From IMG/VR virus record IMGVR_UViG_3300019762_000007, positions 1-64,000 of that record: DNA of 64,000 nucleotides; one strand, written 5' to 3'. Positions within the stretch are counted from its first letter, which is position 1; each line of letters begins with the position of its first letter. The notes under the pieces are model-generated. The model was not told the DNA's origin. It made no database searches and saw nothing but the letters and a program-made list of their open reading frames with translations. A program made the position numbers and the translations under genes. The stretch comes from a virus. Positions 1,322-54,300 of the stretch are shown in pieces.

Positions 1322-2086
1322 TTATTGTAATTTAATTTTAGCTAAGTTTAGTACTGAACTGGTTGCCGTCCTAACTACTGTGTAAGGAACTTGGTTACCA
1401 TTTATATTCAATGTTATATTAGAGTGACCTTTGTATAAAGGTACAGGTAATGGTCCTTCTATTGCTGAATTTATTTGAGGGTAAATAGTTGGAACTAACC
1501 AGTATATGTACACAGGAAGTGCTGTATAGTTGTATGTTTTACTAGCTAAGGATGATATTATGTTATCCACAAGAAGTCTGTCTAAATTTACAAGATCTTC
1601 ATTGCTTGTTATTGAATTTTGCACAGAGTACCCTACGAATGATGGATATACAAACTTAGTACCTAAAGAGATACTATGCTGACCTATACTGTCTATAATA
1701 GACACAAATAGATCTTCTGGGAAGACTCCTGGTATATCAGATGATATATTATTAAATGTTACAGAATCTTGTATAGTAAGATCAAGACCTGTATTAGTGT
1801 TTCTAGATAAAATTGTAGAAGAGCCTTCAACAATAGCCCCTGATATTACAACATCCGTAACAGACCCAACTTCTACTACTTTAGGCGTAGTAGTATAATT
1901 AAGTTGAGATGGTACATAAGGTACATAATCTATAGTGTAAACTATCTTACCATCACTAGTAGTTTGTGTTACTTTTATACTATCACCTCCTACTATCGAA
2001 AGCCCGTCTTTTATTTCCTTATTACCTATAAATGTAGGTATTGCTGAACAACCATTAATCATCTGACTGTGTTTTATATGTTTCAA
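1322..2086 (-). CDS. Hypothetical virion (tail-associated) protein
   Basis: 254-aa beta-rich ORF between tail genes. Confidence 0.45.
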   Translation of the reverse strand: MKHIKHSQMINGCSAIPTFIGNKEIKDGLSIVGGDSIKVTQTTSDGKIVYTIDYVPYVPSQLNYTTTPKVVEVGSVTDVVISGAIVEGSSTILSRNTNTGLDLTIQDSVTFNNISSDIPGVFPEDLFVSIIDSIGQHSISLGTKFVYPSFVGYSVQNSITSNEDLVNLDRLLVDNIISSLASKTYNYTALPVYIYWLVPTIYPQINSAIEGPLPVPLYKGHSNITLNINGNQVPYTVVRTATSSVLNLAKIKLQ

Positions 2087-2660
2087 TATGCTCTACTATA
2101 CGTTGAGCTTCTATATAATTCCCTTGGCACCACTGGTAATAAGATCCGTGTGTCAGTGTACCTACTTGGTTAAGTAACTTTTCAGCGTTTATAACCTCAG
2201 AGTTATGACCTCTGTCTGTAGATGTCTGCATATATAGTCTTACAAGATCACTAGTAAGTTTTCCTTTAAGTGCTATACTATTGTTAAGACTGAATATATC
2301 AATAACATTTGGAACTATTGTTTTCAGATAATCTGAAGAGGATGAATCATTCTCTATATTACTTCCATCTATTTTAATTACTTTGTTTAAAGATTCATTA
2401 AAATAAAATGTATCGATACCTAAAGGAATAGTGGAGATTAGTGCTGCCTCTACATGGTAATACCCATCAACTAGGATCGGAACCTCAAAATCAGTTGTAC
2501 CTACAACTACTTCAGAAGTCTGCACCAATGTAGGACCAGCTGTGCTATTATACTCAGCCTTTATAGCTATTCCCTTTCCAATAAGATCTTCCTGAGATAC
2601 ATCAAGCTTAAATATAGCTACTGTACCTTCCGCATTTTCTCCTATTTTTATTAAACTCAT
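2055..2660 (-). CDS. Hypothetical virion protein, possibly tail hub
   Basis: 201 aa; has its own TAATTTTG box; lies upstream of the tail fibre genes. Confidence 0.4.
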   Translation of the reverse strand: MSLIKIGENAEGTVAIFKLDVSQEDLIGKGIAIKAEYNSTAGPTLVQTSEVVVGTTDFEVPILVDGYYHVEAALISTIPLGIDTFYFNESLNKVIKIDGSNIENDSSSSDYLKTIVPNVIDIFSLNNSIALKGKLTSDLVRLYMQTSTDRGHNSEVINAEKLLNQVGTLTHGSYYQWCQGNYIEAQRIVEHIETYKTQSDD

Positions 2661-2681
2661 ATGTGTTAATTTTAGTTTTTA

Positions 2682-2689
2682 CAAAATTA
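2682..2689 (-). promoter_or_regulatory. Bacteroidota sigma-A -7 box (TAnnTTTG)
   Basis: Minus-strand TAATTTTG 21 nt upstream of ATG 2660, immediately after a terminator. Confidence 0.55.
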
Positions 2690-2719
2690 AAAAACCTTTC
2701 TAGGTTTCGCTAGAAAGGT
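2688..2719 (-). terminator. Intrinsic terminator after the ejection-protein operon
   Basis: 10-bp stem ACCTTTCTAG/CTAGAAAGGT followed by a U-run on the minus strand. Confidence 0.75.
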
Positions 2720-2741
2720 ACAAATTATTTATGATACTTTA

Positions 2742-5700
2742 TTAATACTTATCCATATACCTAATAGCATTATTAAGGTGCTCTTTAGATAACTGATTTC
2801 TATTCTTTACAAATAAATCTACTAACTCATGGTATAATTTAGAGTCTCCTTCTCTAGGCCCTTTTTCGTATACTTCAGATGTTTCCCCAGTAAGTCTAGA
2901 AAATACTTTTAAAACTCTAGCTAAGAAAGCAGAAGATGCAGCAGGATTTTGTATAATTCCTAAAGCTGAAGCAGGGTTGTAGAAGAATGTTGATTCTTTA
3001 TATACCCTAGCAACTGTATATTGCATCATTAGTTCTCCAATACTTTTTTCATCGTCATCATCTGTTCCACCTAAAGCAGTAGCAGCAAGAATTAGAAGCA
3101 GTGTAGCAGTAATCTCAGCAGTCATTCTTCTTAGGTTAGCTTTCTCTCTAGCTGATAAAACAGTAGAGTTCATTACTGTCATCAGTGCAAAGTTTTCATT
3201 CTTTAGACGTTTAATAAAGTTGCCGAGTATTCTAGCACTATCAGAGTAGTACCCAGCTCTATCAGCGTCTAGAAAATAATTTCTTCTATTCTTACCCCAT
3301 CTTCTTTCTATACCAGGAGCAATCCATTTTCTGAATTGATATACCATATTCATCAAAGCATTTCTTTGAGCTAATACTTCAGTATCTTTACTATAGTTAC
3401 CGTGCATTTCTCTGTTCAAAGCTCTAACCTTCCTAGACATCTTACTTCTTTCGGCTACAGAATATTTAACAAGATCTCCTTTATCGTTCTTTATATATAC
3501 ATCTGCTATTTCTAATTTATTAGTTTTCTTGTTAACTGAATGAGCAGATAGTACAGTACCTATTTCTTTACCAGTTTCATCATAAGTTTTAATATGCTGC
3601 ATCACAGCTAGAGCACTTGTAGATTGTAGCAAGTGCTCTCCAGAACTTTGTAATGCAAATGCAAGACTAGTTCTACTTATCCATTGCCCAACGCCAGTAC
3701 CAGTTGTCTTTAAATCTGTACTACCTTTTTCAGCAAAATTACCTAAGAAATCATACTCTAAATTCATATGATTTATGATACAGGTATCTTCTCTATTGAT
3801 TACGTCAGCTAGTGTATTTCCAAAGTTCTTAGCATAAAATGCATTAGCTTTTGCGTAATCTTTTGAGTTATAGAACTCACCAGCTGCCATTTCTATCATT
3901 TGGTTGAATTGACCTTGTATTATATTTACAGTCCCAGCTAATACATTTCCTCCTAATATTGTAAAGGCAGTACTAGTTCTAATCTTCTCTAGTATCTTAT
4001 CTGAGCTTATTTTAATGCCTGCTACATTAAACTCTCCTAAAGCATCCCTATGCTTACCGTAAAGTTGAGAATTAATTAGAGCATCTAGTGCTTTAATAGT
4101 ATTTGATTCAGCACCTGATATAACATCCTTAGGAATGCCTTTTAGTTTAGCTACAGTTCCTTTAATACCATACTGCATTTTAGAGTATTTAGCATTATAA
4201 GCTGTTTCTCTTAGAGCCTCTATCTGATATTTTACTGCTTCTTTCTCTTGAAAGTCTATAGCAGCACTTGTGTATAACATTATAGAATGTGCTATATCTA
4301 AAGACTTTGCACTATCATATAATCTAATAGCTTCTTTTTCAGCTTGTTTTTCTATCTTAGACAATTCAGAATCCTTTAGATTAAGATTGCCAGACTCTTT
4401 AACATACTTTCTTATTAATCTATCCTTTACATTAGAGTCAAATCTTTGTGTAAAGAACATAGGTACGTCCCTAAATAGATTCTTAGCTGACTTATCAACT
4501 GTTTGATCTTCATCAGTATTAGATACTTCTAATGACATTTGTACCTTTGTCTTATACTCTAGTGCAATATCTTTAACAGGTTTACCAGACAGTAAAGCCT
4601 CTATATTAGATTGCATTACTGAAGGTATTCTATAACCTATAGCATCTTTATTATATAATCCTTTCTGACTGTTAATAAAAATATCATCTATTACAATATC
4701 GTAGAACTCTTTTTGAGCTTTAGTTAAATTGTTATACCAAGCATTAGTTACTCCTCTAGCATTTGCTTTCTTTTTAAAATGCTTCTCCCCTTTAATATCT
4801 TCTATAAAAGTTTCGAATAGTTTCTTAGGTGACATCTTTTCACCCTGTTCCTTAAGTAAATTCTTCTGTGCTTCATAGATTCTATGTGTAGTATCTATCT
4901 TTCTCCTTCTGGCTGACTGTGTCTGTTCATCTAATAACATAGCTATTCCAGCTAGGATAGGATTCTTAGAGTCTTGTAATGTCTTTAACTGAGCGTCATA
5001 ACTATCAATATCTGTAAAGTGTCTTGCAGCAGCTTCTATAACATCTTCAGTTTCATTAAGTATGTCTACTAAAGCATCCATCCCTACTGTATCACCTAAA
5101 GAAGTATAAGCAGCTTTGATATCTCTAGTTGTATTCATAGAGGAGTGGATCTCTTTTAATTCCTCTTTAAAGGCTTTAGTAAAAGAAGTATCCTCTGATA
5201 AGGTTGCTAATAACATTTCAAATTCTTCCAATACTTTAGAATGATGATATAAGTTAGATAGTTGACTTAGCTTGTCTTTATTATATTCATCTTGAGTAAC
5301 TCCTTTACCTTTTACAAGGTTTTTAATTATCTCTAGAGATTTGGCAGCTTTATCTAGTTCCGTTTTTATACCAGACAGCATAGCTAAAGTGGTAGACTTG
5401 TCTGATAAAGATTTTAAACTCTTTCTAAGTTCATGCAGACTTTCTGCTTTTTCAAACTCTTTCTTTCCAATTAGGAAAGATTCTTTTTGTTTAATCAACT
5501 TGTCAATAGACTCCTGTAAATCCTCAATCTTTTTAGTCCTTCTAAGAAAAGGTTTTACAAGTTTAGATAATTTACCGCTTTCTTTTAATAAGATTAAATC
5601 AGGTATATTAATTAAAGACAACAAAGGTTCACCGTTCTTGTCTGTCTTACTATCCATTAACTTTCTTAAATTCTTTAAAGCATCTGAATCTGTAGACTTT

Positions 5701-5873
5701 TCTACAGTACTAGCTACTTCCCAGTTACCAAAAGTAGACTTAAAGTCTGCTGTCTTGGTATAGGCCCACATTAATAGCGCAACATCTGAATCACCTATTT
5801 CTTTCTCTAATTCTGCAAATAATAGTGAACGCTCCCCATTAGGAGCGAACACTGCATTAAAACTACATCCCAT
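2742..5873 (-). CDS. Large ejection/cargo (polyvalent-type) virion protein
   Basis: 1043 aa, helical. N-terminal APNGxxSxLF...FKSTFGNW...DKNGEP motif of crAss giant virion proteins; hydrophobic stretch near the C-terminus. Confidence 0.65.
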   Translation of the reverse strand: MGCSFNAVFAPNGERSLLFAELEKEIGDSDVALLMWAYTKTADFKSTFGNWEVASTVEKSTDSDALKNLRKLMDSKTDKNGEPLLSLINIPDLILLKESGKLSKLVKPFLRRTKKIEDLQESIDKLIKQKESFLIGKKEFEKAESLHELRKSLKSLSDKSTTLAMLSGIKTELDKAAKSLEIIKNLVKGKGVTQDEYNKDKLSQLSNLYHHSKVLEEFEMLLATLSEDTSFTKAFKEELKEIHSSMNTTRDIKAAYTSLGDTVGMDALVDILNETEDVIEAAARHFTDIDSYDAQLKTLQDSKNPILAGIAMLLDEQTQSARRRKIDTTHRIYEAQKNLLKEQGEKMSPKKLFETFIEDIKGEKHFKKKANARGVTNAWYNNLTKAQKEFYDIVIDDIFINSQKGLYNKDAIGYRIPSVMQSNIEALLSGKPVKDIALEYKTKVQMSLEVSNTDEDQTVDKSAKNLFRDVPMFFTQRFDSNVKDRLIRKYVKESGNLNLKDSELSKIEKQAEKEAIRLYDSAKSLDIAHSIMLYTSAAIDFQEKEAVKYQIEALRETAYNAKYSKMQYGIKGTVAKLKGIPKDVISGAESNTIKALDALINSQLYGKHRDALGEFNVAGIKISSDKILEKIRTSTAFTILGGNVLAGTVNIIQGQFNQMIEMAAGEFYNSKDYAKANAFYAKNFGNTLADVINREDTCIINHMNLEYDFLGNFAEKGSTDLKTTGTGVGQWISRTSLAFALQSSGEHLLQSTSALAVMQHIKTYDETGKEIGTVLSAHSVNKKTNKLEIADVYIKNDKGDLVKYSVAERSKMSRKVRALNREMHGNYSKDTEVLAQRNALMNMVYQFRKWIAPGIERRWGKNRRNYFLDADRAGYYSDSARILGNFIKRLKNENFALMTVMNSTVLSAREKANLRRMTAEITATLLLILAATALGGTDDDDEKSIGELMMQYTVARVYKESTFFYNPASALGIIQNPAASSAFLARVLKVFSRLTGETSEVYEKGPREGDSKLYHELVDLFVKNRNQLSKEHLNNAIRYMDKY

Positions 5874-5875
5874 AT

Positions 5876-8800
5876 TTAATCACATTTAATTTCTATTTCA
5901 CCAGACTTTAACATCTTGTCTAAGTTACGTTTACCTTCTTTTGATAATGACTCTTTTAATACGTCAATAGATTCAAAAGATTCTCTTGCTAAAGTAGTCA
6001 TATCAACTTTCATATCCAATACTTGTTTTGATGTTTTCTTATTTGCAAAATAACCATTATCTATAGCCTCAAATACTTCATTCATTGTAGGCCTATTAGA
6101 TAGATAACTTAGCAAACTCTTAAAGAAATTTCTTATCAATGAACTAATACCTTTTCTTACTTTACCTTTAGGTTTTGCATAATTCATAAAAGCATCTGCT
6201 AAGAACTCCGTAAGACTTTCGCCTTTTACTGCATACTTGCTAGCTTCTTTAAGTAAAGCATCTCTTTGAGATTCCTTTAAGTATAAATTAAACACTGCAT
6301 GAAAAGCCTCATGTCTTACTACTTTTGGCATTGCTCCATTTACAATAGCGACCATATTATTATCAAATACGCCTAATGCTTCGGTTCCATACTTAGTACT
6401 CATCTCAGCTAAAGATTCTAAAATAGAGATTGGGACATTAGGAAGAACTTTCTTAAACCATTCTAAATCTGTAGTTTGACTAGAGTTGAATAAATTCTTA
6501 TCAAATAACTTAAAATCTATATTGCCAAAAGGATTACTGAGATCTGCTTGTTCCTGTTCTACAACTATTCTATTATGAAGTAATTTATTAGTCTTCTCTA
6601 CCTTCTCTTCAACAGTCTTAATCTCTTTCGGTGCACTTTCTACAGGATTCTTTTTCATAAAGGCTGAAAAAGAATCTAATAAATTTTCTCCAACCATTTG
6701 ACCAGACTCATTAACATTTATAGAGATTGGAGCAGTCTCCTCTACTATTGGTGCATCTGTTTTAACTTCCTGTACATTTGCAAATACCTTAACAAGATTT
6801 TCAGTTTTAAATGAGCTACTACTTAACTCTGTCGTTAGAGTTTCTAGTCTACCATTTAGGGCGTTATAGGTGTTACCATTTTTAAGTAGAATTTCTACAG
6901 AAGGTGCTTTAGTATTTGGATCCGATAGAGAGTTTTGCAAAGTATTAGATAAAGATCCAACTATCTGTTCTATAGTCGCAACATTATTCTCTACTAAATT
7001 TAATATTACAGGAGAGGTTACAGCTATCTGTATAAGATTTTTTATAGTGTCATCAGACTCTAATCTTGTTTTGATAGTTGAAAGATCTTCAATTTCCTGA
7101 CCGATCATTCCTACTATAATATTATTTGCTATATCACTAGGCAATGTACCATCATGAATAGCCTGTACTATTATTTTAGAAAGACCAGCCTCTATTAAAG
7201 CATCTACCATAGACATATCCTTACTTAAATCAGAGTATTTCTTATATACTGCACTGTACCCTTTAAGTTTCGATAGAGACTGTAAGAAATTATTACCTGG
7301 AGTATCCATTAGATTAAGTAATGTATTATCTAATGCCAATGCCATCTCTCTATTAGCAGTAGAAACTACCACCTCACCTTTAGCACTTTTCTTAACTTCT
7401 GTAACAGTTTTCTTATTGCCTCTTGACTCTATCTTACTTGCTACTTTTGGATCTGTTATCTTTACCTTGAACTCTGGGTCTGCATATATATCACCTCCTG
7501 GTACTATATTAACATGTAACCAATTTTCTATTATATCCTTAGAGTTTTCTCTTATTGCTTCAGGATTTATTAACATGTACCTAGTGTTTAAGGCTTCCAT
7601 AATAGCCTCTTTACCAGTAATATTCTCTCTTATACTTTTACCAGTACCTACTTCTTTTCTATTATATTGTAGTTTAGGTACAATATATTTACCTTCCGAA
7701 TCCTTTGTAGGATTAGTAGCAACTAATTGGAAATACGTAGGTGACCCTGTAACACCGTTAAATTTAATAAGACTTGTAAGTTCAGAAGTATCACCTACCA
7801 TTCTCTTATAAACATAATCACTCCACTTATAAGATACACCTCTATAATCAAACTTTTCATTTGATTCTTTAGATGTTATAAGTTTAACAGCTTCTCTCTC
7901 TGTTACACCTCTATCTGACATTATACTATTTACAGTAGCAATAAATTCAGTATTCAATTCATTTACTAAAGTTTCTACTGTATCATAAATATGTTCAGAA
8001 GCAGTCTTATTACCTACCATCACTTTACCAGCAGTCTTAGTAGTAACTGCTAATGGTACTAATGCTCCAGAAGGTGATACTGTTAACATCCATGTACTGC
8101 CAGTAGATTTTCTCATCTCTGGTGTAATATCTATAGGCTCAGGATACATCTTACCATCAGCATCATGCATAAACATTGATGTTGATGCTGTACTGTTAGC
8201 AGTCTCTGAATAAAAGTTACCAATGAACACTGTAGGCTTTCCATCTACTTTTGGCAAGTTATTGTCACCTAAATTATTTAAAGGAGTCTCCATTCCTAGT
8301 ACTTTTATAATATCAGAGGACCTACTTTGTTTTGTATATGTAACCTCTACTTTACCTGAGTCCTTTACAGCATTTACTAATTGCTTGTTATCTGTAGTCT
8401 CTTCTAATACAGATATAACTTTACCAGAAGAGTCCTTTAATAGGATTACATTTTTTCCATTGTGCTCGGTCAATTCTAAAGTTCCTTTAACAGAACCAGC
8501 AACTTGCTTACCTTTCTTATTTAGAAGTGGTTTACTAGCAGCAGTATGATCTATTAAAGAAGAAGACTTTATTTTTGATTCAGTAGGAGTAGCTAAGAAT
8601 AAACCGCTACTTTCTCTACTTTCATCAAATCTATCTGCTTTGATAGTAACCATTCCACTGATTACTTTAGTATCTACTTTAGGAGTTTCTTTAACTTCTG
8701 TAGCAGTTTCGATAGGCTTTTCAATCTTTTTAGTTAGTAGTCCAGAAGGAGCAGGAGTAGTTTCTTCCTTTTCGGTCTCCTCAGTTTCTTCAACAACATC

Positions 8801-11344
8801 TTTTTTATTTAATCTTTTAACGTGTTTATCAAAGTTCTTTTTAAGTTTTTTATTGCCTAAGAAGTTCTTACCAAAAGCGGATTCAAAAGCAGCTTCTAGT
8901 TCAGTTTCATCAATAGCCTGTTCAAATATAGGTTGATTATCTTCTAGTTTATCTTCAGTAACTTGTTCTATAGTTTTACCTAATTCATCTCTAAGTTGCT
9001 CTCTACCTTCTTGAGTTTTAAATAATTTAGCTACTCTATTAGCTTCTTCTATAGACTTATCTCTAAAACCAGAAGTAGTAGTCATTTCTGATAATGTAGA
9101 CACTTCTGAACCTATTCCCAATCCAGGATAGATCTCCTCTAGATATGCCTTCTTTGAGTCAAAGGATTCAGATTTAGTTTTAGACAAAATGTCCTCTATA
9201 CCTCCTTTATATACAGAATTAAATATATCAGCGACATCACCACTACTAAGTTTCCTACCTTCCTTTTGGGCTTTTTTTACCTCTGAAGTTAGATGCTTAT
9301 TTGCTTTGATGTAGATATCTTTTGTCTTATCTATCAGATCTTCAATAGCTTGTTTATCATAATCAGACTTATTTATTAAATCTTCTTTTATCTCTTTATA
9401 AGATTCCTTACTCTTTTTATTAAGCCTATTTACCATTTTAGCAGTTAATGAAGCATTAAGTACTTTCTTTACTGCTAGGTCCTCAATAGCATTATCATAA
9501 GAATCTGCATATTTAGCAATAGTCTTCTTAGCAGCTTCTTGTTCTTCCAAGAAGGTAGCTCTATCATTGTTATAAGATTGTCTCTCTTCTGGAGACATCT
9601 TAGTTTTATCTTTAACCTCAAATTCCTCAGTTAGCTTAGCTCTTGCCTCATCTATTTTTGTCTGCACTTTTTTAGAGGTTCCATAAAGTCTTCCAGCAGA
9701 ATACTGTCTTATTGCATTATCTGCAACATGAGATCTCATCTCTTCATTTGCATCTTTAAGAATAGACACATATTCTGTAAGATTTTTTCTATACTCTTTT
9801 ACATCTTTAATGTCTTCATTACCAGTTTTAATTTCTTCATCAGTCTTCGATAATATATCTTCTGCATCTCTTATACCTCTTTCAATATTACCTTGAGATA
9901 CTGAGTTAGATACATTAGCTATTATACTTCCATATGTGTTAATATCTTTTAAGTTAGGGTTTAGAAGAGACTGCTTAACTGTATTGTTATAAGCGGTATC
10001 TGCTATCTTTGCCATAGACATCTGAATCTCCAGGTTTTTAATTTTATTAGCATTACCCCCTTTTACTTGGTTAATTACTTTACCTCCACCTCCAAATAAA
10101 ACTCCGCCAAAAGCTCCTAATACTACAGCTTCCGCAAACCCATCCTCTGCTGTAGCCCTATCTATAGTAGAGCCTAAACTTTCATAGTTGGCTAAACCGT
10201 GTTCGGCCATCGTATTTTGCATAGACCAAGCATTCGTAATATTTTGATAGCCTTCTTCTAGTCCCTCAGATATACCAACACCTCCTAACTCTCCCAAGCC
10301 CATAGCCCATCTTCTAAGACCTTTAGAATTTGCTAAGTCTTTTTCAAGTTTCTTCATTGAGTTTACAGCTGCTTTTGATCCTTTGGATACTTTAAGCATT
10401 TTACTTATTGCAGATAGCTGTACAAAATCTTGTAACATCATTGGAGCGTTTGCTATATAATTACTTCTACCAGCCTCTCCAGCAATTTCATTTTTTTGGT
10501 CTTCTGTTAGCTCACTTGATTTTTGTTTAGATAAGTCTATTACAGTGCCATCTTGTAATTCATAGATACCATTAGTTATCTCTCCAGAATCTAATTGCTG
10601 TTTCATAGCAGCTACAGTACCCATAGCCTCCATTTGTGATTCTATGTGTCTAGTTATAAGAGTTTGTCCTAGCATGTTAGCATTTGCTAAAACCTTAGAA
10701 GGGTCCATCTTTAAAACTTTGGCAAGCTTTAATATTTTATTACCAGCACCTAAAGATTTTCCTAATAGACTAAGACCTTTAGTAGCAGCCATTCCTGGAA
10801 CCATTATTGTAATTGTACTAGCCATAGTTCCTGCATTCTTAGCCCAAAAGGAACCTGATAAGAAATTTTCGTCTCTAGCTGAGTAAACCTCACCAGATAA
10901 GTCCTCCTTAAGTGATGATAAGTATTCAGCAGCCCAGTTAGTATAATTTGTAGACTCTCCTGTAAATACCGCACCTATCTCAGGTAAATCAGCTAATCTT
11001 GTTAAGCCTTCCGCAGTTCCTAATATTGCTTCTGCACCAAAACTCTTCATACCCTCAATAAGAAGATCACCAGTAGTCTGTGCTTCTGCTCTTTCGTATC
11101 CTAACTCCTCTTGAGAGATCGATTCAAGTCTTGTAGGATCTAAATTTAAATCATACTTAGATTTCTCGAATCTTCCAATACCTGATCCTACATCTCCAGT
11201 ATAAGTATCTACAAGACTAGTTCCTCTAGCTTGTTCAAAAGATGCTGCTAAGTCTTGTGCAGACATTAAACCTTCTGCTGCATCTATGCTATCATTAGTA
11301 GCCTTCTTATCCAAAAAGGCTTGTGCTTTCTTATCAAATCCCAT
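5876..11344 (-). CDS. Giant ejection protein with C-terminal zincin (HExxH) metallopeptidase-like domain
   Basis: 1822 aa. RHEAFH at nt 6299-6313 followed by ESLTEFLADAF; N-terminal Gly/Ala-rich membrane-like helices (EGLEEGYQ, GAFGGVLFGG); crAss cargo position. Confidence 0.75.
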   Translation of the reverse strand: MGFDKKAQAFLDKKATNDSIDAAEGLMSAQDLAASFEQARGTSLVDTYTGDVGSGIGRFEKSKYDLNLDPTRLESISQEELGYERAEAQTTGDLLIEGMKSFGAEAILGTAEGLTRLADLPEIGAVFTGESTNYTNWAAEYLSSLKEDLSGEVYSARDENFLSGSFWAKNAGTMASTITIMVPGMAATKGLSLLGKSLGAGNKILKLAKVLKMDPSKVLANANMLGQTLITRHIESQMEAMGTVAAMKQQLDSGEITNGIYELQDGTVIDLSKQKSSELTEDQKNEIAGEAGRSNYIANAPMMLQDFVQLSAISKMLKVSKGSKAAVNSMKKLEKDLANSKGLRRWAMGLGELGGVGISEGLEEGYQNITNAWSMQNTMAEHGLANYESLGSTIDRATAEDGFAEAVVLGAFGGVLFGGGGKVINQVKGGNANKIKNLEIQMSMAKIADTAYNNTVKQSLLNPNLKDINTYGSIIANVSNSVSQGNIERGIRDAEDILSKTDEEIKTGNEDIKDVKEYRKNLTEYVSILKDANEEMRSHVADNAIRQYSAGRLYGTSKKVQTKIDEARAKLTEEFEVKDKTKMSPEERQSYNNDRATFLEEQEAAKKTIAKYADSYDNAIEDLAVKKVLNASLTAKMVNRLNKKSKESYKEIKEDLINKSDYDKQAIEDLIDKTKDIYIKANKHLTSEVKKAQKEGRKLSSGDVADIFNSVYKGGIEDILSKTKSESFDSKKAYLEEIYPGLGIGSEVSTLSEMTTTSGFRDKSIEEANRVAKLFKTQEGREQLRDELGKTIEQVTEDKLEDNQPIFEQAIDETELEAAFESAFGKNFLGNKKLKKNFDKHVKRLNKKDVVEETEETEKEETTPAPSGLLTKKIEKPIETATEVKETPKVDTKVISGMVTIKADRFDESRESSGLFLATPTESKIKSSSLIDHTAASKPLLNKKGKQVAGSVKGTLELTEHNGKNVILLKDSSGKVISVLEETTDNKQLVNAVKDSGKVEVTYTKQSRSSDIIKVLGMETPLNNLGDNNLPKVDGKPTVFIGNFYSETANSTASTSMFMHDADGKMYPEPIDITPEMRKSTGSTWMLTVSPSGALVPLAVTTKTAGKVMVGNKTASEHIYDTVETLVNELNTEFIATVNSIMSDRGVTEREAVKLITSKESNEKFDYRGVSYKWSDYVYKRMVGDTSELTSLIKFNGVTGSPTYFQLVATNPTKDSEGKYIVPKLQYNRKEVGTGKSIRENITGKEAIMEALNTRYMLINPEAIRENSKDIIENWLHVNIVPGGDIYADPEFKVKITDPKVASKIESRGNKKTVTEVKKSAKGEVVVSTANREMALALDNTLLNLMDTPGNNFLQSLSKLKGYSAVYKKYSDLSKDMSMVDALIEAGLSKIIVQAIHDGTLPSDIANNIIVGMIGQEIEDLSTIKTRLESDDTIKNLIQIAVTSPVILNLVENNVATIEQIVGSLSNTLQNSLSDPNTKAPSVEILLKNGNTYNALNGRLETLTTELSSSSFKTENLVKVFANVQEVKTDAPIVEETAPISINVNESGQMVGENLLDSFSAFMKKNPVESAPKEIKTVEEKVEKTNKLLHNRIVVEQEQADLSNPFGNIDFKLFDKNLFNSSQTTDLEWFKKVLPNVPISILESLAEMSTKYGTEALGVFDNNMVAIVNGAMPKVVRHEAFHAVFNLYLKESQRDALLKEASKYAVKGESLTEFLADAFMNYAKPKGKVRKGISSLIRNFFKSLLSYLSNRPTMNEVFEAIDNGYFANKKTSKQVLDMKVDMTTLARESFESIDVLKESLSKEGKRNLDKMLKSGEIEIKCD

Positions 11345-15201: not shown

Positions 15202-18200
15202 TTAATATGTATTTAATACTACATCTGTTTTATAGTCCTCTAAGGTACTAAAGGATTCTTTATCATTCTCAAAATCAATTGAAGTTGTTATAAAAGATCC
15301 TGTCATCTTTGCTTTAAATTGTCCTAAATAATCTATAGATCCGTCTTCTTCCTTTCTATCTACAGGTATTGCTAATCTATAGTGATCTTGTATTTTATTA
15401 ATATTCAATATATCATTTTGAAACACTGTATCAATAAAAGAAGTTACTATATTAGGTATAAGTATTCCAGTGTCTTTATAAGTATTAAAGAACCTAAAAT
15501 TCTTAAGTTTTACTTTATTAGTATTTACTTTATGTATACTTGGTACTTTATAATTATTTAATTTAAATCTAGTATTTAAAAATTCGTAATTCTCCATATT
15601 AGAATTAGAAGTTTGAATATTTAATGAGAATGTAATATTACTGTCCCCATTAATTGATCTTAATGCACTCTGATATAGTTCATCTGTTTTTATTAAATAC
15701 TTATTATTTATTAGGTATAGTGTATCATTTCCTACATTAATTATAGATTTAGGTCTATAAGTGTGAAAGCTAGAAAAACTATTAAGCTTCTCGTCATAGC
15801 TTAATGTCCAATTATCATTAGATATATGTAATGTATTATTACCAGTGCTATAACCTATAAATAAATTACTATTCTCCTTTAATAATCTAGAAAGAGAATA
15901 CTTACAAGTATCTGCTCCTAAAGGAACTAGAGAATCTGTAAGCTTTAGGATACTTCCATTTTTCTTGTCTATGAAGAAATACCCAAAAGGAGTACTCACT
16001 GAGTGGCTGTGGTCGATACATCCTGTATAGGAACCCTTGGAAGTAGCCATTTCAAGTGCAGGTCTATTAAACAATCCTCCATTACCTAAGTATACTTCTC
16101 CTAAAGAAGATGACTGAATTACAGCATCATTTACAAAACACCTCCAAAGAGTGTCAGCTGTATGAGCGTATAAGGTATTATTAGTTGAGAATATATTTGT
16201 TATATCTCCTCTAGATACATTTAAATCAGTGTAGTTATTTACTAAGAAGTTTCTATAAGAGTCTACAGAACTTCCAGAGTTTTGAACATCTGAATATATA
16301 ATGCGTGTACCAAATGTACTAACGCTTTCAATATCTTCTGTAGGTGTAAACTTAGGTTCTATAACATTCTGAGCAGAGTACTGTTTATTGTATGCTGTAG
16401 GATGGCCCAATTCACCAGAATAATTAAATAACCCGAAAGGATCAGTCTTACTTAACATTTGAGTGAAGTTTGGGTATAGAGGAAGAGTACCTTCTATACC
16501 ACCTTCTGCATTTATTTGCTTAAAGTATTGAAGATCATAATTAACATTAGACTCTAAGGGTAAATAGTATAGATTTCTTGAAATTAATTCAGGAGTTCTA
16601 GCCTCATTAGTATTCCAATAAAATCTATAGATACTTGTTTTAGAAAATATACCAACTTTATTTATAAAAGTATCTCCACCGAATACATTTATTGATGTAG
16701 AATCAGATGTTCTAATATCTGTTAAAGGATCTATTCTAGCTGTACCAAAGAGTACTGTAGTGATAGGTAAATACTCCTTACTGCTTATAGCTCCATAATA
16801 ACCAGGTCTAGAAGTTTTTAAATTATAAACATCTACTGGAATAGAGTCATCCCACAGTTTAACTATGTCTGTATCACCAGAATCTATATCATGTACAAAT
16901 TCTATTGTAGATCCTATATAAGAAGTAGGAAAGTTTCCATTTGTTTTAAAACACATCAATGGGCCAGATCCAGTACCAGATTTAATAGGTTCTCCTAAAC
17001 CATTTATAAATGCAGAAGAAGTATTAGCAGGTATATCAGCAGAACCTAAAACTTCAACAGTTTCAGAGTCATTTAAATTACCACTAGTACTAGACACATC
17101 TAATAGATTCATTAAAGGAATGTCTTCATATCTACCAGCATTAGTTAGCTTATATTTCGCTGTATAAACTGCTACCCTTTCAAGTATAGAAGCATCACGT
17201 TGCATATCAGTGAATATATAAGGTTCTGGTGTTAATATACCTAATAGGCTTCTATTTACATCAGTTTCTTTTTTATTAACACGAGTACTGCTTCCATCCC
17301 TAACTGTATAGTTAACTGAAAGACCGCCAGGAACTGGAGTATGAAACTTATCTTTCGAATCATCTTCGATCGTCCAAAAATGCTGACCTATACCTTGAGA
17401 TAGTATAGTTTCTTTTCCCTTTCTACTCTCACGAGTTATAGTGTAACCGTCCATCTGAGAGCTTATCTCTTCTGGTATTACTACTGTAAAGTTGAGACCT
17501 AATATGTTAATAACCAGTATACCATTAGCACTAGAACTATCTATCACAGGACATACTGACTCTGTTGGCATTCTATGATACTTTATAGTATTACCAGACA
17601 GTGCCCCAAAGTAGTCAGGATATTTAAGCCCAATTCCAGAGGTTTCTGCTACACCTAAAGTACCGTCAGCTAGGGCATTTTGATTAGTTCCAATCGCTGG
17701 TATATGATAAGTATTTAAAGCCACTCCTCCTACTATTGGTGTAAACCCAAAAGAATATACCTCGCCTCTTCTGTATCCTACTCTTCTGGCACAGTCAATA
17801 GGATTCTTATAAATACCTTCGTGTATACCTGTTTCTAGAACATTGTTCTCTCCATTAAAAGCATCTCCTCCAGTCCTTGCTATTCCAGTAGGAACAGTAT
17901 AATCAGAATCATAGTCAAGTAGTTCACCAGAAAAAGAAAATGTATCTGTAATACTCTTCTTGTATTTAACCCATTTTACAGAAATACTATTAGCTATGTT
18001 CTGCCATTTAGAGTGTTCTATATCTTCTGATGTTGACAGGTTACCTAAGAACAGTATATTATCTTTTGTTCCTATAGTTTTTGCAGTTTTGTAGTTTACG
18101 CCACCTCCTAATATTTCTTCTACAGGTATAGATTCTGAATCAGTTTCCTGAGCTGTATACTCTATTGTAACTGAACTTCCTTTAATCTCTACTTTATTTA

Positions 18201-18969
18201 GCGCAGTCATTTTTGGAACGTTGCTATCACCTATATAGGTAAAGACAACTGGCTGGATATACTTATACACAGAAGATACTCCACTTATAGTAGCTGTTAT
18301 CCTCTTATTTGTTTTAGTTTGTGGTAAGTCCCCAGTAACACCTCTACCAACACCTGACCCTTTGAATATAGGAATTGGGCTAGTAAAAGCTCCAAAATTA
18401 GAGCTATTACCAGTATCAGTTACATACCTTGCACCTATCATATATATACCAGAAGGAATACTACCTCCTTCAGTTACTGCTTCAAGTTCAGTTACTGTTG
18501 GAGCAGCCGTTACAAATAATCTAGTCTCTTCCTCTTCACTATTATAAGTTTTACCTAAGTAGTGTACTCTCGGTACGTTGTAGTAATCTAGAAAATAAAA
18601 TGTAGGTTGACCAGTATAGGTAGCTTTTACTATAAATTTAGTATAACCACTATTTAATTTTATTGTAAGTAACTCTCCTACTTTAGTGAGTTCCCCTAAA
18701 ATGTTATTACCTTCAATATGCTTATACTCATATATTCTAATACCTGTATCAAGTCGGGTAACTATAAAATTTCTACCATTTAAATAGGCATCCCCAGCAA
18801 CTGTTTCTCCTTCAGGTATACTTACAGAATCCACAAATGGTTTCTCGGTCCTAACTTTTCCTGTAATATCCCTTGTTATGTTAATAGCATTTTCATAAGT
18901 ACCTGGAATAGTTTCAGAACCTACAAAGTCTAAAGCTAGACCTTTACTAAAATCTTGTCTAATTTCCAT
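15202..18969 (-). CDS. Tail muzzle / tail stabilization protein (Tstab)
   Basis: 1255 aa; motifs LFLGNL, GYRRGEVYSFG, FGGDTFI, TRIIYS, GDITNI, SFSSFHTY. Confidence 0.85.
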   Translation of the reverse strand: MEIRQDFSKGLALDFVGSETIPGTYENAINITRDITGKVRTEKPFVDSVSIPEGETVAGDAYLNGRNFIVTRLDTGIRIYEYKHIEGNNILGELTKVGELLTIKLNSGYTKFIVKATYTGQPTFYFLDYYNVPRVHYLGKTYNSEEEETRLFVTAAPTVTELEAVTEGGSIPSGIYMIGARYVTDTGNSSNFGAFTSPIPIFKGSGVGRGVTGDLPQTKTNKRITATISGVSSVYKYIQPVVFTYIGDSNVPKMTALNKVEIKGSSVTIEYTAQETDSESIPVEEILGGGVNYKTAKTIGTKDNILFLGNLSTSEDIEHSKWQNIANSISVKWVKYKKSITDTFSFSGELLDYDSDYTVPTGIARTGGDAFNGENNVLETGIHEGIYKNPIDCARRVGYRRGEVYSFGFTPIVGGVALNTYHIPAIGTNQNALADGTLGVAETSGIGLKYPDYFGALSGNTIKYHRMPTESVCPVIDSSSANGILVINILGLNFTVVIPEEISSQMDGYTITRESRKGKETILSQGIGQHFWTIEDDSKDKFHTPVPGGLSVNYTVRDGSSTRVNKKETDVNRSLLGILTPEPYIFTDMQRDASILERVAVYTAKYKLTNAGRYEDIPLMNLLDVSSTSGNLNDSETVEVLGSADIPANTSSAFINGLGEPIKSGTGSGPLMCFKTNGNFPTSYIGSTIEFVHDIDSGDTDIVKLWDDSIPVDVYNLKTSRPGYYGAISSKEYLPITTVLFGTARIDPLTDIRTSDSTSINVFGGDTFINKVGIFSKTSIYRFYWNTNEARTPELISRNLYYLPLESNVNYDLQYFKQINAEGGIEGTLPLYPNFTQMLSKTDPFGLFNYSGELGHPTAYNKQYSAQNVIEPKFTPTEDIESVSTFGTRIIYSDVQNSGSSVDSYRNFLVNNYTDLNVSRGDITNIFSTNNTLYAHTADTLWRCFVNDAVIQSSSLGEVYLGNGGLFNRPALEMATSKGSYTGCIDHSHSVSTPFGYFFIDKKNGSILKLTDSLVPLGADTCKYSLSRLLKENSNLFIGYSTGNNTLHISNDNWTLSYDEKLNSFSSFHTYRPKSIINVGNDTLYLINNKYLIKTDELYQSALRSINGDSNITFSLNIQTSNSNMENYEFLNTRFKLNNYKVPSIHKVNTNKVKLKNFRFFNTYKDTGILIPNIVTSFIDTVFQNDILNINKIQDHYRLAIPVDRKEEDGSIDYLGQFKAKMTGSFITTSIDFENDKESFSTLEDYKTDVVLNTY

Positions 18970-51379: not shown

Positions 51380-54300
51380 ATGACGTGTAAAGTAACTAGT
51401 AAAGTTGAAGATTCTAAAAATCAACTAAAGTCAGTTGTATCACAAGTTGAGCCTAAAGAGTCATTGAATCCAATACCAGCAGGGTTTATATCCCATACTA
51501 CTTATGGTATAGCTGTGGACAATATGACTTCAGGCTTACTAAAAGAAATTACTGCTGTTAAAGAAGCAGGAGTTATTACTCAGGTTCCTTTAGGAGAAAT
51601 TACTTATGAAGATATTCATTCTGCTTATAAAAGAGTTGTAAATAGACTTGAAAAGATTCATACCGATAATCTAAGTAAGATTGCTAATATAGAGCAGAGA
51701 ATGCTTGAAGCTACTTTTGATGAAGCTAATAGACCTAAAGCTGAGAATGCAATATCTATAATAAAGGCAGCTAATCTAGAGCTAGTCGAAATGATGAGAC
51801 CTGATAATCATAGATTATTAGAGGACACTACCAGAATGTTAAAATCTTTAGGTATTAATGTTTCTTTGGCTAAACTAGAAGTATCTTTAATGTCTGAGGA
51901 GGATTATAAAGAGTTTTCTAAAGAGTATGAAGAGGAAAATGATGCTGAACAGAATAGTAAAGAGAGAATTTATTCTCAGGATTCTGCTTCTATAAACCCA
52001 AAAGATACTGTAGGTACAGTTATCAAGTTGTATCTACAAACTCAAGTTGAGAAGAGATATGATAAGGATGGTAATATAGTACAAGTAAGAGATCATAAAG
52101 GTTTCCCAAAGAAGATAAATGTTAGTAGGACTATTGCAGAGCTTTATTCAGTTCTTTCAGATATCAGTACTTATGAAGGAATGATAGAGAAACTTAAAGT
52201 TATTGGAACTGAAAATGCTAATCTAGCTTCTATAGCTAGTGACTTAGAAACTAAAGCTCTTGAAGACCCAGAAGCAGAATATGCTACTTTCGCTAATACT
52301 TTCTTTACAGTGTTTAATACAAGTTATACAGAAGGTAAAAAGATTATAAAGGATTTACAGATTGTAAATAAAGAAGATAATCCTGAAGCTGAAATGTGGG
52401 GATCAGAGTTTGGTACTGGTGAGCAATCACAAGAAATTGCTAAAATTTCTGTGATATCTTCAAATACTTCAGCAGGAGAAGAAGGTTTATTTAATGAATG
52501 GAAGTCTGCTTTCAATCTAATTCTCATTAAAAATAAGGAAAAAGAAGAAAGAGATTTCTTATTAAAGTCAGGTGCTCAGGTAGCTCTAGACTTGTTGAAT
52601 GCTGTTTCTTTATCTGAGAATACTTCTAAAGGTTTTGAGAAGGTTAAAGATATACTTCATTCTAGGTTTATCAATGTAATGAAAATTGCAGGTATAGAAA
52701 TGTCTCATGAAGGTATGAATGCTTTAAAGGAGAGTTTCGATTTCAGGGCCAGAAGGAAAGCTAAGATGGATGGGAAAGAGTATGTTGAAGCTCCTGCTGA
52801 ATATTTAGCTTATCTCAAGAATACTGTTAAATTTACAGTAGATGATTTCTTACATAAAGGAAAGAACTTTATTAATTCTAGTAATCAATCAGACAATCAA
52901 GTAGCTAAGATTAAAGACTTAGCTTCTGCCCAAAGATCCATTGGTACTGATGCTACAGTAGCTTCTTATATTAATGACAACCTCAAGACTTATTTTGCTA
53001 TCGGCAATTCAGATTATGTTAAAACTGTAGTAGCTTCTATTAAAAATGGATCATCTAGAGTTGTTAATAAGATTGCGGAATCTACTAGATTATTTAAAAA
53101 TCTAAGTAATGTAGACAATTTAGGGAAACCTTTAGCTGAAATTAATAGATTTGATACTGATGGTAGTGCTGGTGACTTTAAAGAGTATTCTGATTTAAGT
53201 CAAGCCTATACTACTAGACTTAATATGGCTTTCAATCCTTTATTTAAAGATAAGAAAGTAAGTACTGAAAAAGAGAAATACACTATTAGAGCTAAAGCAT
53301 TTAATAATGTTGGTTACTATTTTGTCCCAACTCTTAGTGATAGATCTCATGCTGACTTATTGAAGTCTTCTAGTCTTTTATCTAGAGATAGTAGAGGAGA
53401 AATTACATCTCCATTTGATACTTCTGGGAACTTAAAAGAAATATTCAGTAGAGAGTTTACTAATATATCTTTAGCTGAGGCTAATGAAGCTAATGAAGTT
53501 AGAATGTTACATACTCTAATGTCTAAGTGGGAAAAAGCTACAGATGAGCATTTCAATGAAGTTATTGCTATCTATGAAGAATCTGATTTAGGTACTTGGG
53601 TAGCTGAATTAAAAGAGTCTAAAGATTCTAAATTAGCAGATAAAATTAAATCTACTTTTGTTAAGAATTATCATGTTAATAAAAAAGGTGGTTTAGGAAA
53701 TGCTGGGTGGCTACAAATAGTTCCTCAGCTTAATACTCTTTTAGAATTTGACGAAACTACTGGAGCTATTGCTAATCTTGAGATATTATCTTCTCCTAAA
53801 GCATTAGAAGTAATTACTTCTTTTGTTAAAGAACAGTATAATTATTTTGAAGAAGAATTGATAGATGGAGGATTCTTAGGTAAGTCTGCAAAAGGTAATT
53901 TATTCCTTACTAGTGATTTAGGTGCTACTTTAATACAGAGCCCTCAAAGTAAGAATATGGTCGATTCTTTACAGTCTATGTTTATCAATGACTTATTGAA
54001 TAGCTACGAGTATATGATTAACTTCCAAGGAGGTGTACAATATAATACAGCAGCTGATTTTCAATCTTATTATGATTCTTATAAAACTGACCCTGCAACT
54101 GCAAAGTTAGATTTACAAGATATGATTATTGACTCTAATAAGCGTATGTCATTGCTAACTTCTCCCCAAAGTAAAGGTAGAATTTCTACTGATGAAAATC
54201 CTGGTGGCATGAAAGCTACATTTAAAGTAGCTATTTGTAAAGATGTTTATATTCAAAGTGCTTTTATGGACATGTATAAAGCAGTTCTTGCTAATAATGC

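What the first reader, a model, noticed from the sequence alone, without database searches (positions are those of the whole stretch)
2742..11344. Matching terminal cysteines on the giant ejection proteins suggest a disulfide-linked chain
Seen: the 1822-aa protein ends ...EIKCD, apparently its only Cys. The vRNAP starts MTCK and ends ...DGCII, and the 1043-aa protein starts MGCS. These proteins are otherwise Cys-poor. Inference: head-to-tail disulfides or shared metal sites (1822-aa to RNAP to 1043-aa) could link the proteins for ordered packaging and ejection, releasing them in the reducing cytoplasm. This would also let a relocated RNAP gene still be packaged, and it hints that the gene once lay between the other two.
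Basis: inference. Interest (0 to 1): 0.7.

Follow-up and report, generated by a model that had tools for sequence, protein, structure and literature searches.

The report
Terminal cysteines chain crassvirus cargo proteins
Three giant proteins that this crAss-like phage most likely packs and injects, one of them its RNA polymerase, keep cysteines at exactly the four ends that face the next protein; relatives follow the same rule and lack these cysteines where the genes are fused, so the proteins are probably tied head to tail by disulfide bonds, a link nobody has yet shown in a crassvirus.

Summary
The 1822-aa protein has one Cys, at residue 1821. The vRNAP (2360 aa from MTCK) has Cys3 and Cys2358. 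The 1043-aa protein has Cys3. The three proteins hold 8 Cys in 5225 aa, against 1.06% Cys in the window's other ORFs.

The pattern is conserved at about 20-27% identity:
- It holds in crAss001, cr128_1 and phi14:2.
- It holds in 27 IMG/VR clusters: 26/27 C-terminal and 25/27 N-terminal Cys, about 0.3 expected for each, and the exceptions resolve on inspection.
- 54 of 65 distant homologues of the 1822-aa protein have a C-terminal Cys.

The cysteines track polypeptide breaks, not domains:
- Zincin+vRNAP fusions of 3300-5300 aa keep only a C-terminal Cys.
- Triple fusions have no terminal Cys. Two of them (4532 and 4924 aa) have no Cys at all.

All 9 informative independent tree contrasts go the predicted way. 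A physical precedent exists: cryo-EM of cyanopodophage A4 shows a gp27 Cys1715-gp26 Cys5 disulfide. I found no sequence homology between A4 and this module.

Best reading (about 0.7): head-to-tail disulfides make a "virtual polyprotein" for ejection. No papers I searched describe this for crassviruses. This scan has noted the same rule on other crassvirus genomes. The bond itself is untested.

The parts
5876..11344 (-). Gene of the first chain member ('Z'): 1822-aa giant cargo protein with a C-terminal zincin-like domain. Homologue of crAss001 gp47 and phi14:2 gp67.
   Evidence: Translation. tblastn of the C-terminal 200 aa hits crAss001-group 'RNA-polymerase subunit' genes. HMMER finds 133 distant homologues.
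5882..5884 (-). TGT codon of Cys1821, the only Cys of the 1822-aa protein, two residues from its C-terminus (...EIEIKCD*).
   Evidence: 54 of 65 homologues of 1500 aa or more have a Cys in the last 10 residues (0.41 expected), and in 38 it is the only Cys.
6299..6313 (-). HEAFH motif (residues 1678-1682) of the zincin-like domain. A conserved Glu (E1713) lies 31 residues downstream.
   Evidence: H1678, E1679 and H1682 are invariant and E1713 is kept in 14/15 of an alignment of 15 homologues. The AF2 model has a three-strand sheet followed by the motif helix. Pfam and Foldseek support is only weak.
2742..5873 (-). Gene of the last chain member ('P'): 1043-aa protein, homologue of crAss001 gp49 and phi14:2 gp65. 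It starts 2 nt after the stop of the 1822-aa gene.
   Evidence: Translation. tblastn hits 63 phage records, E down to 5e-35 (bajarodcaudo virus 1); crAss001-group hits 1e-34 to 5e-32. Junction DNA.
5865..5867 (-). TGT codon of Cys3 of the 1043-aa protein (MGCSFN...).
   Evidence: C3 is one of only 3 invariant columns among 25 family members at about 18% mean column identity. It lies in a low-confidence N-terminal tail of the AF2 model (residues 1-6, pLDDT below 50).
51380..58462 (+). Gene of the middle chain member ('V'): 2360-aa virion RNA polymerase. It sits about 40 kb from the other two genes, on the other strand.
   Evidence: Translation. tblastn hits crassvirus RNAP genes, including phi14:2 g066. 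The DFDYD residues D1672, F1673, D1674 and D1676 are invariant in alignment A1.
51386..51388 (+). TGT codon of Cys3 of the vRNAP (MTCKVT...).
   Evidence: M1 and C3 are invariant in the vRNAP alignment. The N-terminal Cys is present whenever the polymerase polypeptide has a separate upstream partner.
58451..58453 (+). Codon of Cys2358 of the vRNAP, three residues from the C-terminus (...NDGCII*).
   Evidence: 26 of 27 IMG/VR clusters have a Cys in the last 10 residues of the polymerase-containing protein (0.32 expected). It is absent in 5 of 5 proteins where the P domain is fused on.
56393..56407 (+). DFDYD catalytic motif of the vRNAP (residues 1672-1676).
15202..18969 (-). Context: crassvirus muzzle protein gene. 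[quoted passage not shown]
   Evidence: Pfam PF25731 crAss_MUZ, E 9.8e-51.

Best explanation
The window is a very divergent crassvirus. Its three giant cargo proteins are Z (1822 aa, zincin-like C-terminal domain), V (virion RNA polymerase) and P (1043 aa). They behave as one polyprotein that has been cut into pieces.

At every cut, the upstream piece keeps a Cys within about 10 residues of its C-terminus. The downstream piece keeps a Cys at residues 3-7. Almost all other Cys have been purged.

The most likely mechanism is as follows.
1. The termini dock: Z C-terminus to V N-terminus, and V C-terminus to P N-terminus.
2. An intermolecular disulfide locks each docked pair in the virion, giving one linear thread, Z-S-S-V-S-S-P.
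3. These proteins must partly unfold to pass the narrow tail channel, so only a covalent link can keep them together.
4. A link at the extreme termini keeps the thread unbranched. The lack of internal Cys avoids loops that could not be threaded.
5. In the reducing cytoplasm the links would open and release the polymerase.

Shown here: the sequence rule, its conservation, and its co-variation with gene fusion and fission. Taken from the literature: a disulfide of this type in phage A4, disulfides in crAss001 virions, and the need for cargo to unfold. Inferred: the bond in crassviruses and its role in ejection and release.
For: 1. Window: 4 of 8 Cys lie at the four junction-facing termini and none at the two outer termini.

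2. Cultured relatives at about 20-27% identity show the same pattern.
- crAss001: gp47's only Cys is at -3. gp50 has Cys5 and a Cys at -9. gp49's only Cys is Cys5.
- phi14:2: gp67's only Cys is the last residue. gp66's only two Cys are at 3 and -2. gp65's only Cys is Cys3.

3. 27 IMG/VR clusters below 40% identity: 26/27 have the C-terminal Cys and 25/27 the N-terminal Cys, with 0.32 and 0.27 expected. The three exceptions resolve on inspection.

4. 65 Z-domain representatives of 1500 aa or more: 54 have a C-terminal Cys, with 0.41 expected.

5. The Cys follow breaks, not domains.
- Z-only proteins: 37/42 have a C-terminal Cys only.
- Z-V fusions: 15/19 have a C-terminal Cys only.
- Z-V-P fusions: 3/3 have no terminal Cys, and two (4532 and 4924 aa) have no Cys at all.
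- L013, another triple fusion, has no Cys.
- cr4_1 and cr6_1 (Z-V fused) and crAss002 (V-P fused) fit the rule.
- Where the zincin domain sits on V, a separate upstream protein with a single C-terminal Cys is still present.

6. Tree contrasts: 5 of 5 informative pairs on the N side and 4 of 4 on the C side go the predicted way, and none go the other way.

7. In this window V is 40 kb away on the other strand. In crAss001 Z is on the opposite strand. So a DNA-level junction signal cannot explain the pattern.

8. Precedent: the A4 gp27 Cys1715-gp26 Cys5 disulfide seen by cryo-EM (PMC12002296). Each of those proteins has only that one Cys.

9. Disulfides exist in crAss001 virions, and the cargo proteins must partly unfold to pass the tail (PMC10172136).
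Against: - No biochemical or structural observation of the bond exists for any crassvirus. The cargo proteins were not resolved in the crAss001 maps.
- The partner assignment rests on co-occurrence only.
- A4 gp26 and gp27 show no detectable sequence similarity to Z, V or P. Foldseek did not link the P model to the A4 structure 9k3a. A4 is therefore an analogue, not a shown homologue.
- Gut crassviruses live in anoxic, reducing surroundings, and disulfides do not readily form in the cytoplasm. When and where the bond would form is unclear.
- Each tree test alone is not significant (p 0.06 and 0.125).
- Three exceptions needed post hoc re-reading of start or stop sites.
- Some lineages keep many internal Cys, for example 9-13 in some polymerases.
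Confidence: 0.7

Rival explanations
1. The termini are tethered head to tail in the same order, but by different chemistry. The facing Cys would share a metal ion, or form another covalent or redox bridge, rather than a simple disulfide.
For: The sequence data show only that the Cys pair up across breaks. They do not show the bond type. Acidic residues often flank the Cys; in this window the contexts are ...EIEIKCD, MTCKVTSKVED and EDMNDGCII.
Against: Each terminus supplies one Cys, and no His or second Cys is conserved beside it. A standard tetrahedral Zn site cannot be built from that. The one solved example with the same signature (A4) is a disulfide.
Confidence: 0.12
2. The terminal Cys do not pair with each other across the chain. 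Each would bind something else: the same Cys of a second copy (a homodimer), another virion component such as the portal or a cargo protein, or it would act as a redox sensor.
For: Copy numbers of the three proteins in the virion are unknown. Other crassvirus cargo proteins occasionally have a single near-terminal Cys. Examples are crAss002 gp30 at -8 and cr6_1 gp34 at residue 10.
Against: - The outer termini (Z N-terminus, P C-terminus) lack Cys in nearly every sequence checked.
- Cys are absent as pairs at fused junctions, and the remaining pair is always a native neighbour pair under the chain model.
- Triple fusions have no terminal Cys.
- A model of intramolecular V(N)-V(C) plus Z(C)-P(N) pairing would leave 'widowed' Cys in both kinds of two-protein fusion.
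Confidence: 0.1
3. The C-terminal Cys of the 1822-aa protein is a 'cysteine switch' that caps the zinc of its own HEAFH metallopeptidase domain. That would keep the domain latent, as in matrix metalloproteinase pro-domains.
For: Cys1821 lies about 140 residues after the conserved HExxH...E motif. The tail has low model confidence and so is probably flexible.
Against: - The Cys follows the polypeptide end, not the zincin domain.
- In Z-V fusions it sits about 1200-2800 residues past the zincin domain.
- Where the zincin domain has moved onto V, the zincin-less upstream protein still ends in a single Cys.
- The idea explains none of the other three Cys.
Confidence: 0.02
4. The pattern is chance, a compositional bias, or a DNA-level signal at gene junctions (for example translational coupling) that happens to encode Cys.
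For: TGT lies next to the stop and start codons at the Z/P junction. The finding was noticed post hoc.
Against: - Expected counts are about 0.3-0.4 against 25-54 observed in three independent samples.
- The Cys persist when the genes are 40 kb apart (this window) or on opposite strands (crAss001).
- Their distance from the terminus varies: residues 3-7 at the N-terminus and mostly -1 to -10 at the C-terminus, with outliers at -13 and -44.
Confidence: 0.01

Closest known systems
Cyanopodophage A4 (Anabaena phage A-4L) ejection proteins gp27 and gp26: Cys1715-Cys5 disulfide in the pre-ejectosome (PNAS 2025, PMC12002296; PDB 9k3a)
   Same: Two consecutive giant ejection-protein genes. The upstream protein (1717 aa) has a single Cys at -3. 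The downstream protein (1114 aa) has a single Cys at residue 5. Cryo-EM shows these two Cys disulfide-bonded, with the C-terminal helix of gp27 docked into gp26. The C-terminal context (..NPCQF) resembles several crassvirus polymerase tails (..NPCK..KPCKK).
   Different: - No sequence similarity to Z, V or P by HMM, hhalign or phmmer, and no Foldseek link.
- It is a two-protein link in a T7-like pentameric core with no RNA polymerase.
- The paper does not describe a conserved rule or any link to gene fusion.
- Here the chain has three members, with the polymerase in the middle.
Crassvirales virion RNA-polymerase cargo module: crAss001 gp47/gp50/gp49 (Bayfield 2023, PMC10172136) and phi14:2 gp67/gp66/gp65 (Drobysheva 2020, bioRxiv 10.1101/2020.03.07.982082)
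   Same: Z, V and P are homologous to these proteins. They carry the same terminal Cys. The proteins are found in virions by mass spectrometry, and they are fused into one polyprotein in some phages.
   Different: Neither paper mentions these cysteines or any link between the three proteins ('cysteine' and 'disulfide' occur 0 times in the preprint; the crAss001 disulfides described are in the tail and gp57). In this window the polymerase gene has moved 40 kb away to the other strand, and P is shorter (1043 aa against about 1350-1420 aa).
Leptolyngbya phage Lbo-JY46 (PP438436.1), an unclassified 125-kb cyanophage
   Same: A 1552-aa protein whose only Cys is its last residue is followed by a 2748-aa protein whose only Cys is residue 4. 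The second protein carries a P-family domain (HMM E 1.8e-93).
   Different: These proteins show no DxDxD polymerase motif. The phage is not classified in Crassvirales. Nothing is known about its virion.
Schitoviridae (N4) ejected vRNAP with gp51 and gp52 (Nat Commun 2026, PMC13434306)
   Same: A giant virion RNA polymerase is ejected together with partner proteins encoded in one operon.
   Different: The polymerase family is unrelated. The paper contains no mention of cysteine or disulfide, and it states that crassvirus ejection proteins still await structures.

Membership tests
Crassvirales virion RNA-polymerase cargo module (Z/V/P = crAss001 gp47/gp50/gp49) | Giant single-chain RNA polymerase with the DxDxD catalytic motif, homologous to phi14:2 gp66 | tested here: met
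   tblastn hits 79 phage records, including phi14:2 g066. The DFDYD residues D1672, F1673, D1674 and D1676 are invariant.
Crassvirales virion RNA-polymerase cargo module (Z/V/P = crAss001 gp47/gp50/gp49) | gp49/gp65-family partner protein | tested here: met
   tblastn E 1e-34 to 5e-32 to crAss001-group 'RNA-polymerase subunit' genes. Aligns with 24 family members.
Crassvirales virion RNA-polymerase cargo module (Z/V/P = crAss001 gp47/gp50/gp49) | gp47/gp67-family partner with a zincin-like HExxH domain | tested here: met
   The C-terminal 200 aa hit the gp47-type genes of cr128_1 and Kehishuvirus. HExxH and a downstream E are conserved. Assignment of the fold to zincins is weak.
Crassvirales virion RNA-polymerase cargo module (Z/V/P = crAss001 gp47/gp50/gp49) | Lies in a crassvirus genome next to the tail and muzzle genes | tested here: met
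   PF25731 crAss_MUZ, E 9.8e-51, at 15202-18969. Z and P follow on the same strand. V has been relocated.
Crassvirales virion RNA-polymerase cargo module (Z/V/P = crAss001 gp47/gp50/gp49) | The proteins are present in virions | not testable with these tools
   Shown by mass spectrometry only for crAss001 and phi14:2.
Disulfide-tethered consecutive ejection proteins (A4 gp27-gp26 type) | Upstream protein with a near-C-terminal Cys and downstream protein with a Cys at residues 3-7, both otherwise Cys-poor | tested here: met
   Window. A-4L. Relatives.
Disulfide-tethered consecutive ejection proteins (A4 gp27-gp26 type) | Homology to A4 gp26/gp27 | tested here: not met
   No HMM hit at E<=10. hhalign probability 0.2%. 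No phmmer hit at E<=0.01. 9k3a is absent from the Foldseek hits of the P model.
Disulfide-tethered consecutive ejection proteins (A4 gp27-gp26 type) | A physical S-S bond between the two termini in the virion | not testable with these tools
   Needs non-reducing gels, cross-link mass spectrometry or a structure.
Cysteine-switch latent zincin (MMP pro-domain type) | The Cys stays associated with the metallopeptidase domain that it caps | tested here: not met
   The Cys tracks the polypeptide terminus even when that is about 1200-2800 residues from the zincin domain, or on a zincin-less protein.

The most novel reading that the evidence does not exclude
Crassviruses, and at least one cyanophage that carries a P-family domain (the non-homologous A4 shows the same signature), inject a redox-latched 'virtual polyprotein'. 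Split cargo proteins are stitched N-to-C by terminal disulfides into one unbranched thread that can be pushed through the tail in one direction. Reduction in the host cytoplasm is then the trigger that frees the RNA polymerase to start early transcription. Selection for this threading would explain the near-total purge of internal cysteines from 1000-5000-aa proteins. It would also explain why gene fusion, fission and relocation are tolerated so freely in this module.
Probability: 0.45. Interest if true: 0.85.

Novelty: new variant of a known kind. Interest (0 to 1): 0.75.

Why it matters
How crassviruses, the most abundant phages of the human gut, get about 0.7 MDa of polymerase-associated protein through a narrow tail is an open question. 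[quoted passage not shown]

The terminal-Cys rule gives a concrete hypothesis that is cheap to test in the two cultured systems, crAss001 and phi14:2. It explains three things:
- why the three proteins can be fused, split or encoded far apart without loss of function;
- why they are almost free of Cys;
- how stoichiometric co-delivery could be ensured.

The rule also helps annotation. It points to the true start codons and polypeptide boundaries of these giant genes. It also identifies chain partners when the genes are scattered, as in this window.

Tried and rejected
Searches and tools that gave nothing:
- Word-indexed homologue searches with the 1043-aa and 1822-aa proteins returned only the query itself.
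- IMG/VR scans with single proteins found no relatives. Only the alignment-based scan worked.
- PHROGs and Pfam gave no family for Z, P or V.
- PDB sequence and profile searches with P, Z, the P-family profile and the zincin-domain profile gave nothing meaningful.
- Foldseek of the AF2 models of P (pLDDT 67) and of the Z C-terminal domain (pLDDT 70) gave no hit at E<=0.001. The only weak hint was to the IrrE/PprI-type metalloprotease.
- The pdb_via_wide library was not available.
I could therefore not see the gene context of the nearest Z homologues.
- MAFFT timed out on the polymerase cores. I used hmmalign plus FastTree instead.
- The published version of Drobysheva et al. (PMC12127119) is not held. 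I used the preprint.

Ideas rejected:
- Cysteine switch: the Cys tracks termini, not the zincin domain.
- DNA-level junction artefact: the genes are 40 kb apart or on opposite strands.
- Intramolecular V(N)-V(C) plus Z(C)-P(N) pairing: both kinds of fusion contradict it.
- Homology of the A4 proteins to the crassvirus module: not detected.
Full report
WHAT IS THERE

The window is a very divergent crassvirus. It comes from an IMG/VR record of 88.7 kb. A muzzle gene matching PF25731 (E 9.8e-51) lies at 15202-18969 on the minus strand. Downstream on the same strand are a 770-aa ORF, a 502-aa ORF, the 1822-aa protein (5876-11344, here called Z) and the 1043-aa protein (2742-5873, here called P).

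The P gene starts 2 nt after the Z stop codon...AAA TGT GAT TAA AT ATG GGA TGT....

The polymerase (here called V) lies 40 kb away on the plus strand. Its first ATG is at 51380, behind an AT-rich leader.

Homology of the three proteins:
- V is homologous to crassvirus virion RNA polymerases, including phi14:2 g066, and has a DFDYD motif.
- P is homologous to crAss001 gp49.
- The C-terminal 200 aa of Z match the gp47-type genes of the crAss001 group. They carry a conserved HEAFH...E signature.

THE OBSERVATION

It is correct.
- Z has one Cys, at residue 1821 of 1822.
- V has Cys3, Cys2358 (of 2360) and three internal Cys.
- P has Cys3 and one internal Cys.

That is 8 Cys in 5225 aa (0.15%). The other 53 ORFs of the window hold 1.06% Cys, and only 2/53 and 6/53 of them have an N- or C-terminal Cys.

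With uniform placement about 0.08 terminal Cys are expected, against four found (P about 2e-6, my arithmetic). The four are exactly the termini that face a neighbour in the order Z-V-P.

CONSERVATION

No close relatives exist, so every comparison is at about 20-30% identity.

Cultured and reference phages show the same pattern:
- crAss001: gp47 (2341 aa) has its only Cys at -3. gp50 has Cys5 and a Cys at -9. gp49 (1349 aa) has Cys5 as its only Cys.
- cr128_1 shows the same pattern.
- phi14:2: gp67's only Cys is its last residue. gp66 has exactly two Cys, at 3 and -2. gp65's only Cys is Cys3.

In phi14:2 the genes lie in the order gp67-gp66-gp65 on one strand, which is the order of the proposed chain.

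An alignment-based scan of IMG/VR returned 80 loci. I called ORFs with a first-ATG rule and assigned domains with three HMMs. After clustering the P family at 40% identity there were 27 clusters.
- 26/27 have a Cys in the last 10 residues of the polymerase-containing protein (0.32 expected).
- 25/27 have a Cys in the first 8 residues of the P protein (0.27 expected).

The three exceptions resolve on inspection:
- L011 has an in-frame stop followed by a further ORF that ends ...EEC just before the P gene.
- L017 has a GTG start that gives (M)NKCP.
- L033 has a second Met that gives MKC.

Cys3 is one of only three invariant columns among 25 P-family proteins.

Independently, an HMMER search of 1.84 billion representatives with the C-terminal 1200 aa of Z gave 133 hits. 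Of the 65 that are 1500 aa or longer, 54 have a Cys in the last 10 residues (0.41 expected). In 38 of them it is the only Cys.

THE CYS TRACK POLYPEPTIDE BREAKS

The module occurs in several architectures, and the Cys follow the breaks in each.

| Architecture | Terminal Cys seen |
|---|---|
| Z alone | 37/42 have a C-terminal Cys only |
| Z-V fused (3300-5300 aa) | 15/19 have a C-terminal Cys only, often the only Cys of the protein |
| cr4_1 and cr6_1 (Z-V fused) | Fused protein has a Cys at -4; the next gene starts MIC or MIIC |
| crAss002 (V-P fused) | Z ends ..VCS; the fusion has no C-terminal Cys and has an internal MSC at Met33, probably the true start |
| Z-V-P fused | 3/3 have no terminal Cys; two (4532 and 4924 aa) have no Cys at all; L013 also has none |
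| Zincin domain moved to the N-terminus of V | V keeps both terminal Cys, and a separate upstream protein of 1300-1650 aa with a single C-terminal Cys is present |

A FastTree of 53 polymerase cores gave 10 independent pairs that differ in Z fusion. The N-terminal Cys state changed the predicted way in 5, the other way in 0, and was unchanged in 5. There were 4 pairs that differ in P fusion, and about 4 of 4 went the predicted way. Each test alone is not significant (p 0.06 and 0.125). Together they give 9 informative contrasts for and 0 against.

The window's V is on a long branch. It sits in a clade that holds split, partly fused and fully fused forms.

WHAT THIS EXCLUDES

- A DNA-level junction signal. 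The rule holds when the genes are 40 kb apart (this window) or on opposite strands (crAss001).
- A cysteine switch for the zincin domain. The Cys stays at the terminus, not with the domain.
- Intramolecular V(N)-V(C) pairing together with Z(C)-P(N) pairing. This would leave unpaired Cys in both kinds of two-protein fusion, whereas under the chain model the surviving pair is always a native pair.
- Homotypic dimers. These do not explain why the two outer termini lack Cys in nearly every sequence checked.

MECHANISM

The best-supported mechanism is a head-to-tail tether, Z(C)-V(N) and V(C)-P(N), most probably a disulfide.

Support from the literature:
- Cryo-EM of cyanopodophage A4 shows the C-terminal helix of gp27 docked into gp26 and fixed by a Cys1715-Cys5 disulfide (PMC12002296).
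- I confirmed on the A-4L genome that these are the only Cys of the two proteins (1717 and 1114 aa).
- crAss001 virions contain several structural disulfides (PMC10172136).
- The crAss001 cargo proteins gp47, gp49 and gp50 are in the virion and must partly unfold to pass constrictions under 50 A (PMC10172136).

My inference from this is as follows. Once the proteins unfold, only a covalent link can hold them together. A link at the extreme termini keeps the thread unbranched. Purging internal Cys avoids loops that cannot be threaded. Cytoplasmic reduction would then release the proteins.

The AF2 models place Cys3 of P and Cys1821 of Z in low-confidence terminal tails. That is compatible with accessible ends, but it is weak evidence.

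LIMITS

- Nobody has shown the bond in a crassvirus.
- A4 is not detectably homologous to this module.
- It is unknown when a disulfide would form for phages of strict anaerobes.
- A metal bridge cannot be excluded.
- The zincin assignment rests on the motif, with only weak Pfam and Foldseek hints.

NOVELTY

The following papers contain no mention of these cysteines:
- the crAss001 atlas;
- the phi14:2 polymerase preprint;
- the Yutin 2021 survey;
- a 2026 paper on N4 ejection.

Full-text searches found no report of them.

The kind of link is known from A4. New here are the three-member chain that includes the polymerase, the order-wide rule, and its coupling to gene fusion and fission.

The rule also holds in Leptolyngbya phage Lbo-JY46, which carries a P-family domain.

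This scan has already noted the same rule on at least eight other crassvirus genomes. Those notes led me to read the A4 paper, which had already appeared in my own search. I checked its claim myself.

What this window adds is a case where the middle gene has been relocated and all four Cys are still kept.

Noticed in passing
L005 (crAss002, NC_055828.1) 15657-15760: The annotated start of gp33 (MVLDYS...) lies 32 codons upstream of an in-frame MSCTPSNP. By the family rule (M-x-C) the true start is probably Met33, at about L005:15753.
   Followed up: partly
L017 13780-13840: The P-family gene seems to start at a GTG that overlaps the end of the polymerase gene (...GAT TGT GAA TAA / GTG AAT AAG TGT CCA). 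This gives (M)NKCP. The first ATG is 194 codons further on.
   Followed up: partly
L011 about 9750 (compare L012): An in-frame stop splits the Z-V polyprotein, which is continuous (4461 aa) in the related L012. The downstream part still ends ...NNPFEEC. It could be a sequencing error, a real split or read-through.
   Followed up: no
L066 10408-11734: The polymerase gene is interrupted by about 1.3 kb that holds a LAGLIDADG-type endonuclease ORF (..YWLGFIYADGCIS..), presumably a group I intron.
   Followed up: no
L089 (Leptolyngbya phage Lbo-JY46, PP438436.1) 2564-15470: A cyanophage outside Crassvirales has a 1552-aa protein whose only Cys is its last residue. It is followed by a 2748-aa protein whose only Cys is residue 4 and which carries a P-family domain. 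The junction-Cys rule therefore reaches beyond crassviruses.
   Followed up: partly
window 1322-2062 (-): A 246-aa ORF two genes downstream of P starts MINGCS and has this Cys5 as its only Cys. P has no C-terminal Cys, so this may be chance (2/53 ORFs have an N-terminal Cys).
   Followed up: no
L003 (cr128_1) 4680-4925: A small phage gene annotated as thiol-disulfide isomerase/thioredoxin lies about 3 kb upstream of the polymerase gene. It could serve nucleotide reduction or virion disulfide chemistry.
   Followed up: no
window 45890-48376 (+): An 828-aa protein has 23 Cys (2.8%) in CxC/CxxC-like clusters, in strong contrast to the Cys-poor cargo proteins. It was not identified.
   Followed up: no
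L008-L087, P-family N-termini: Two recurrent N-terminal contexts appear. Many environmental lineages have M-x(1-5)-C-P-N (MANCPN, MICPNL, MSCPNL). The gut crAss001-like lineages have M-A-[RK]-x-C-A-I-I. C-termini often end in K-x-C-K, NPCK or KIKIVC.
   Followed up: no
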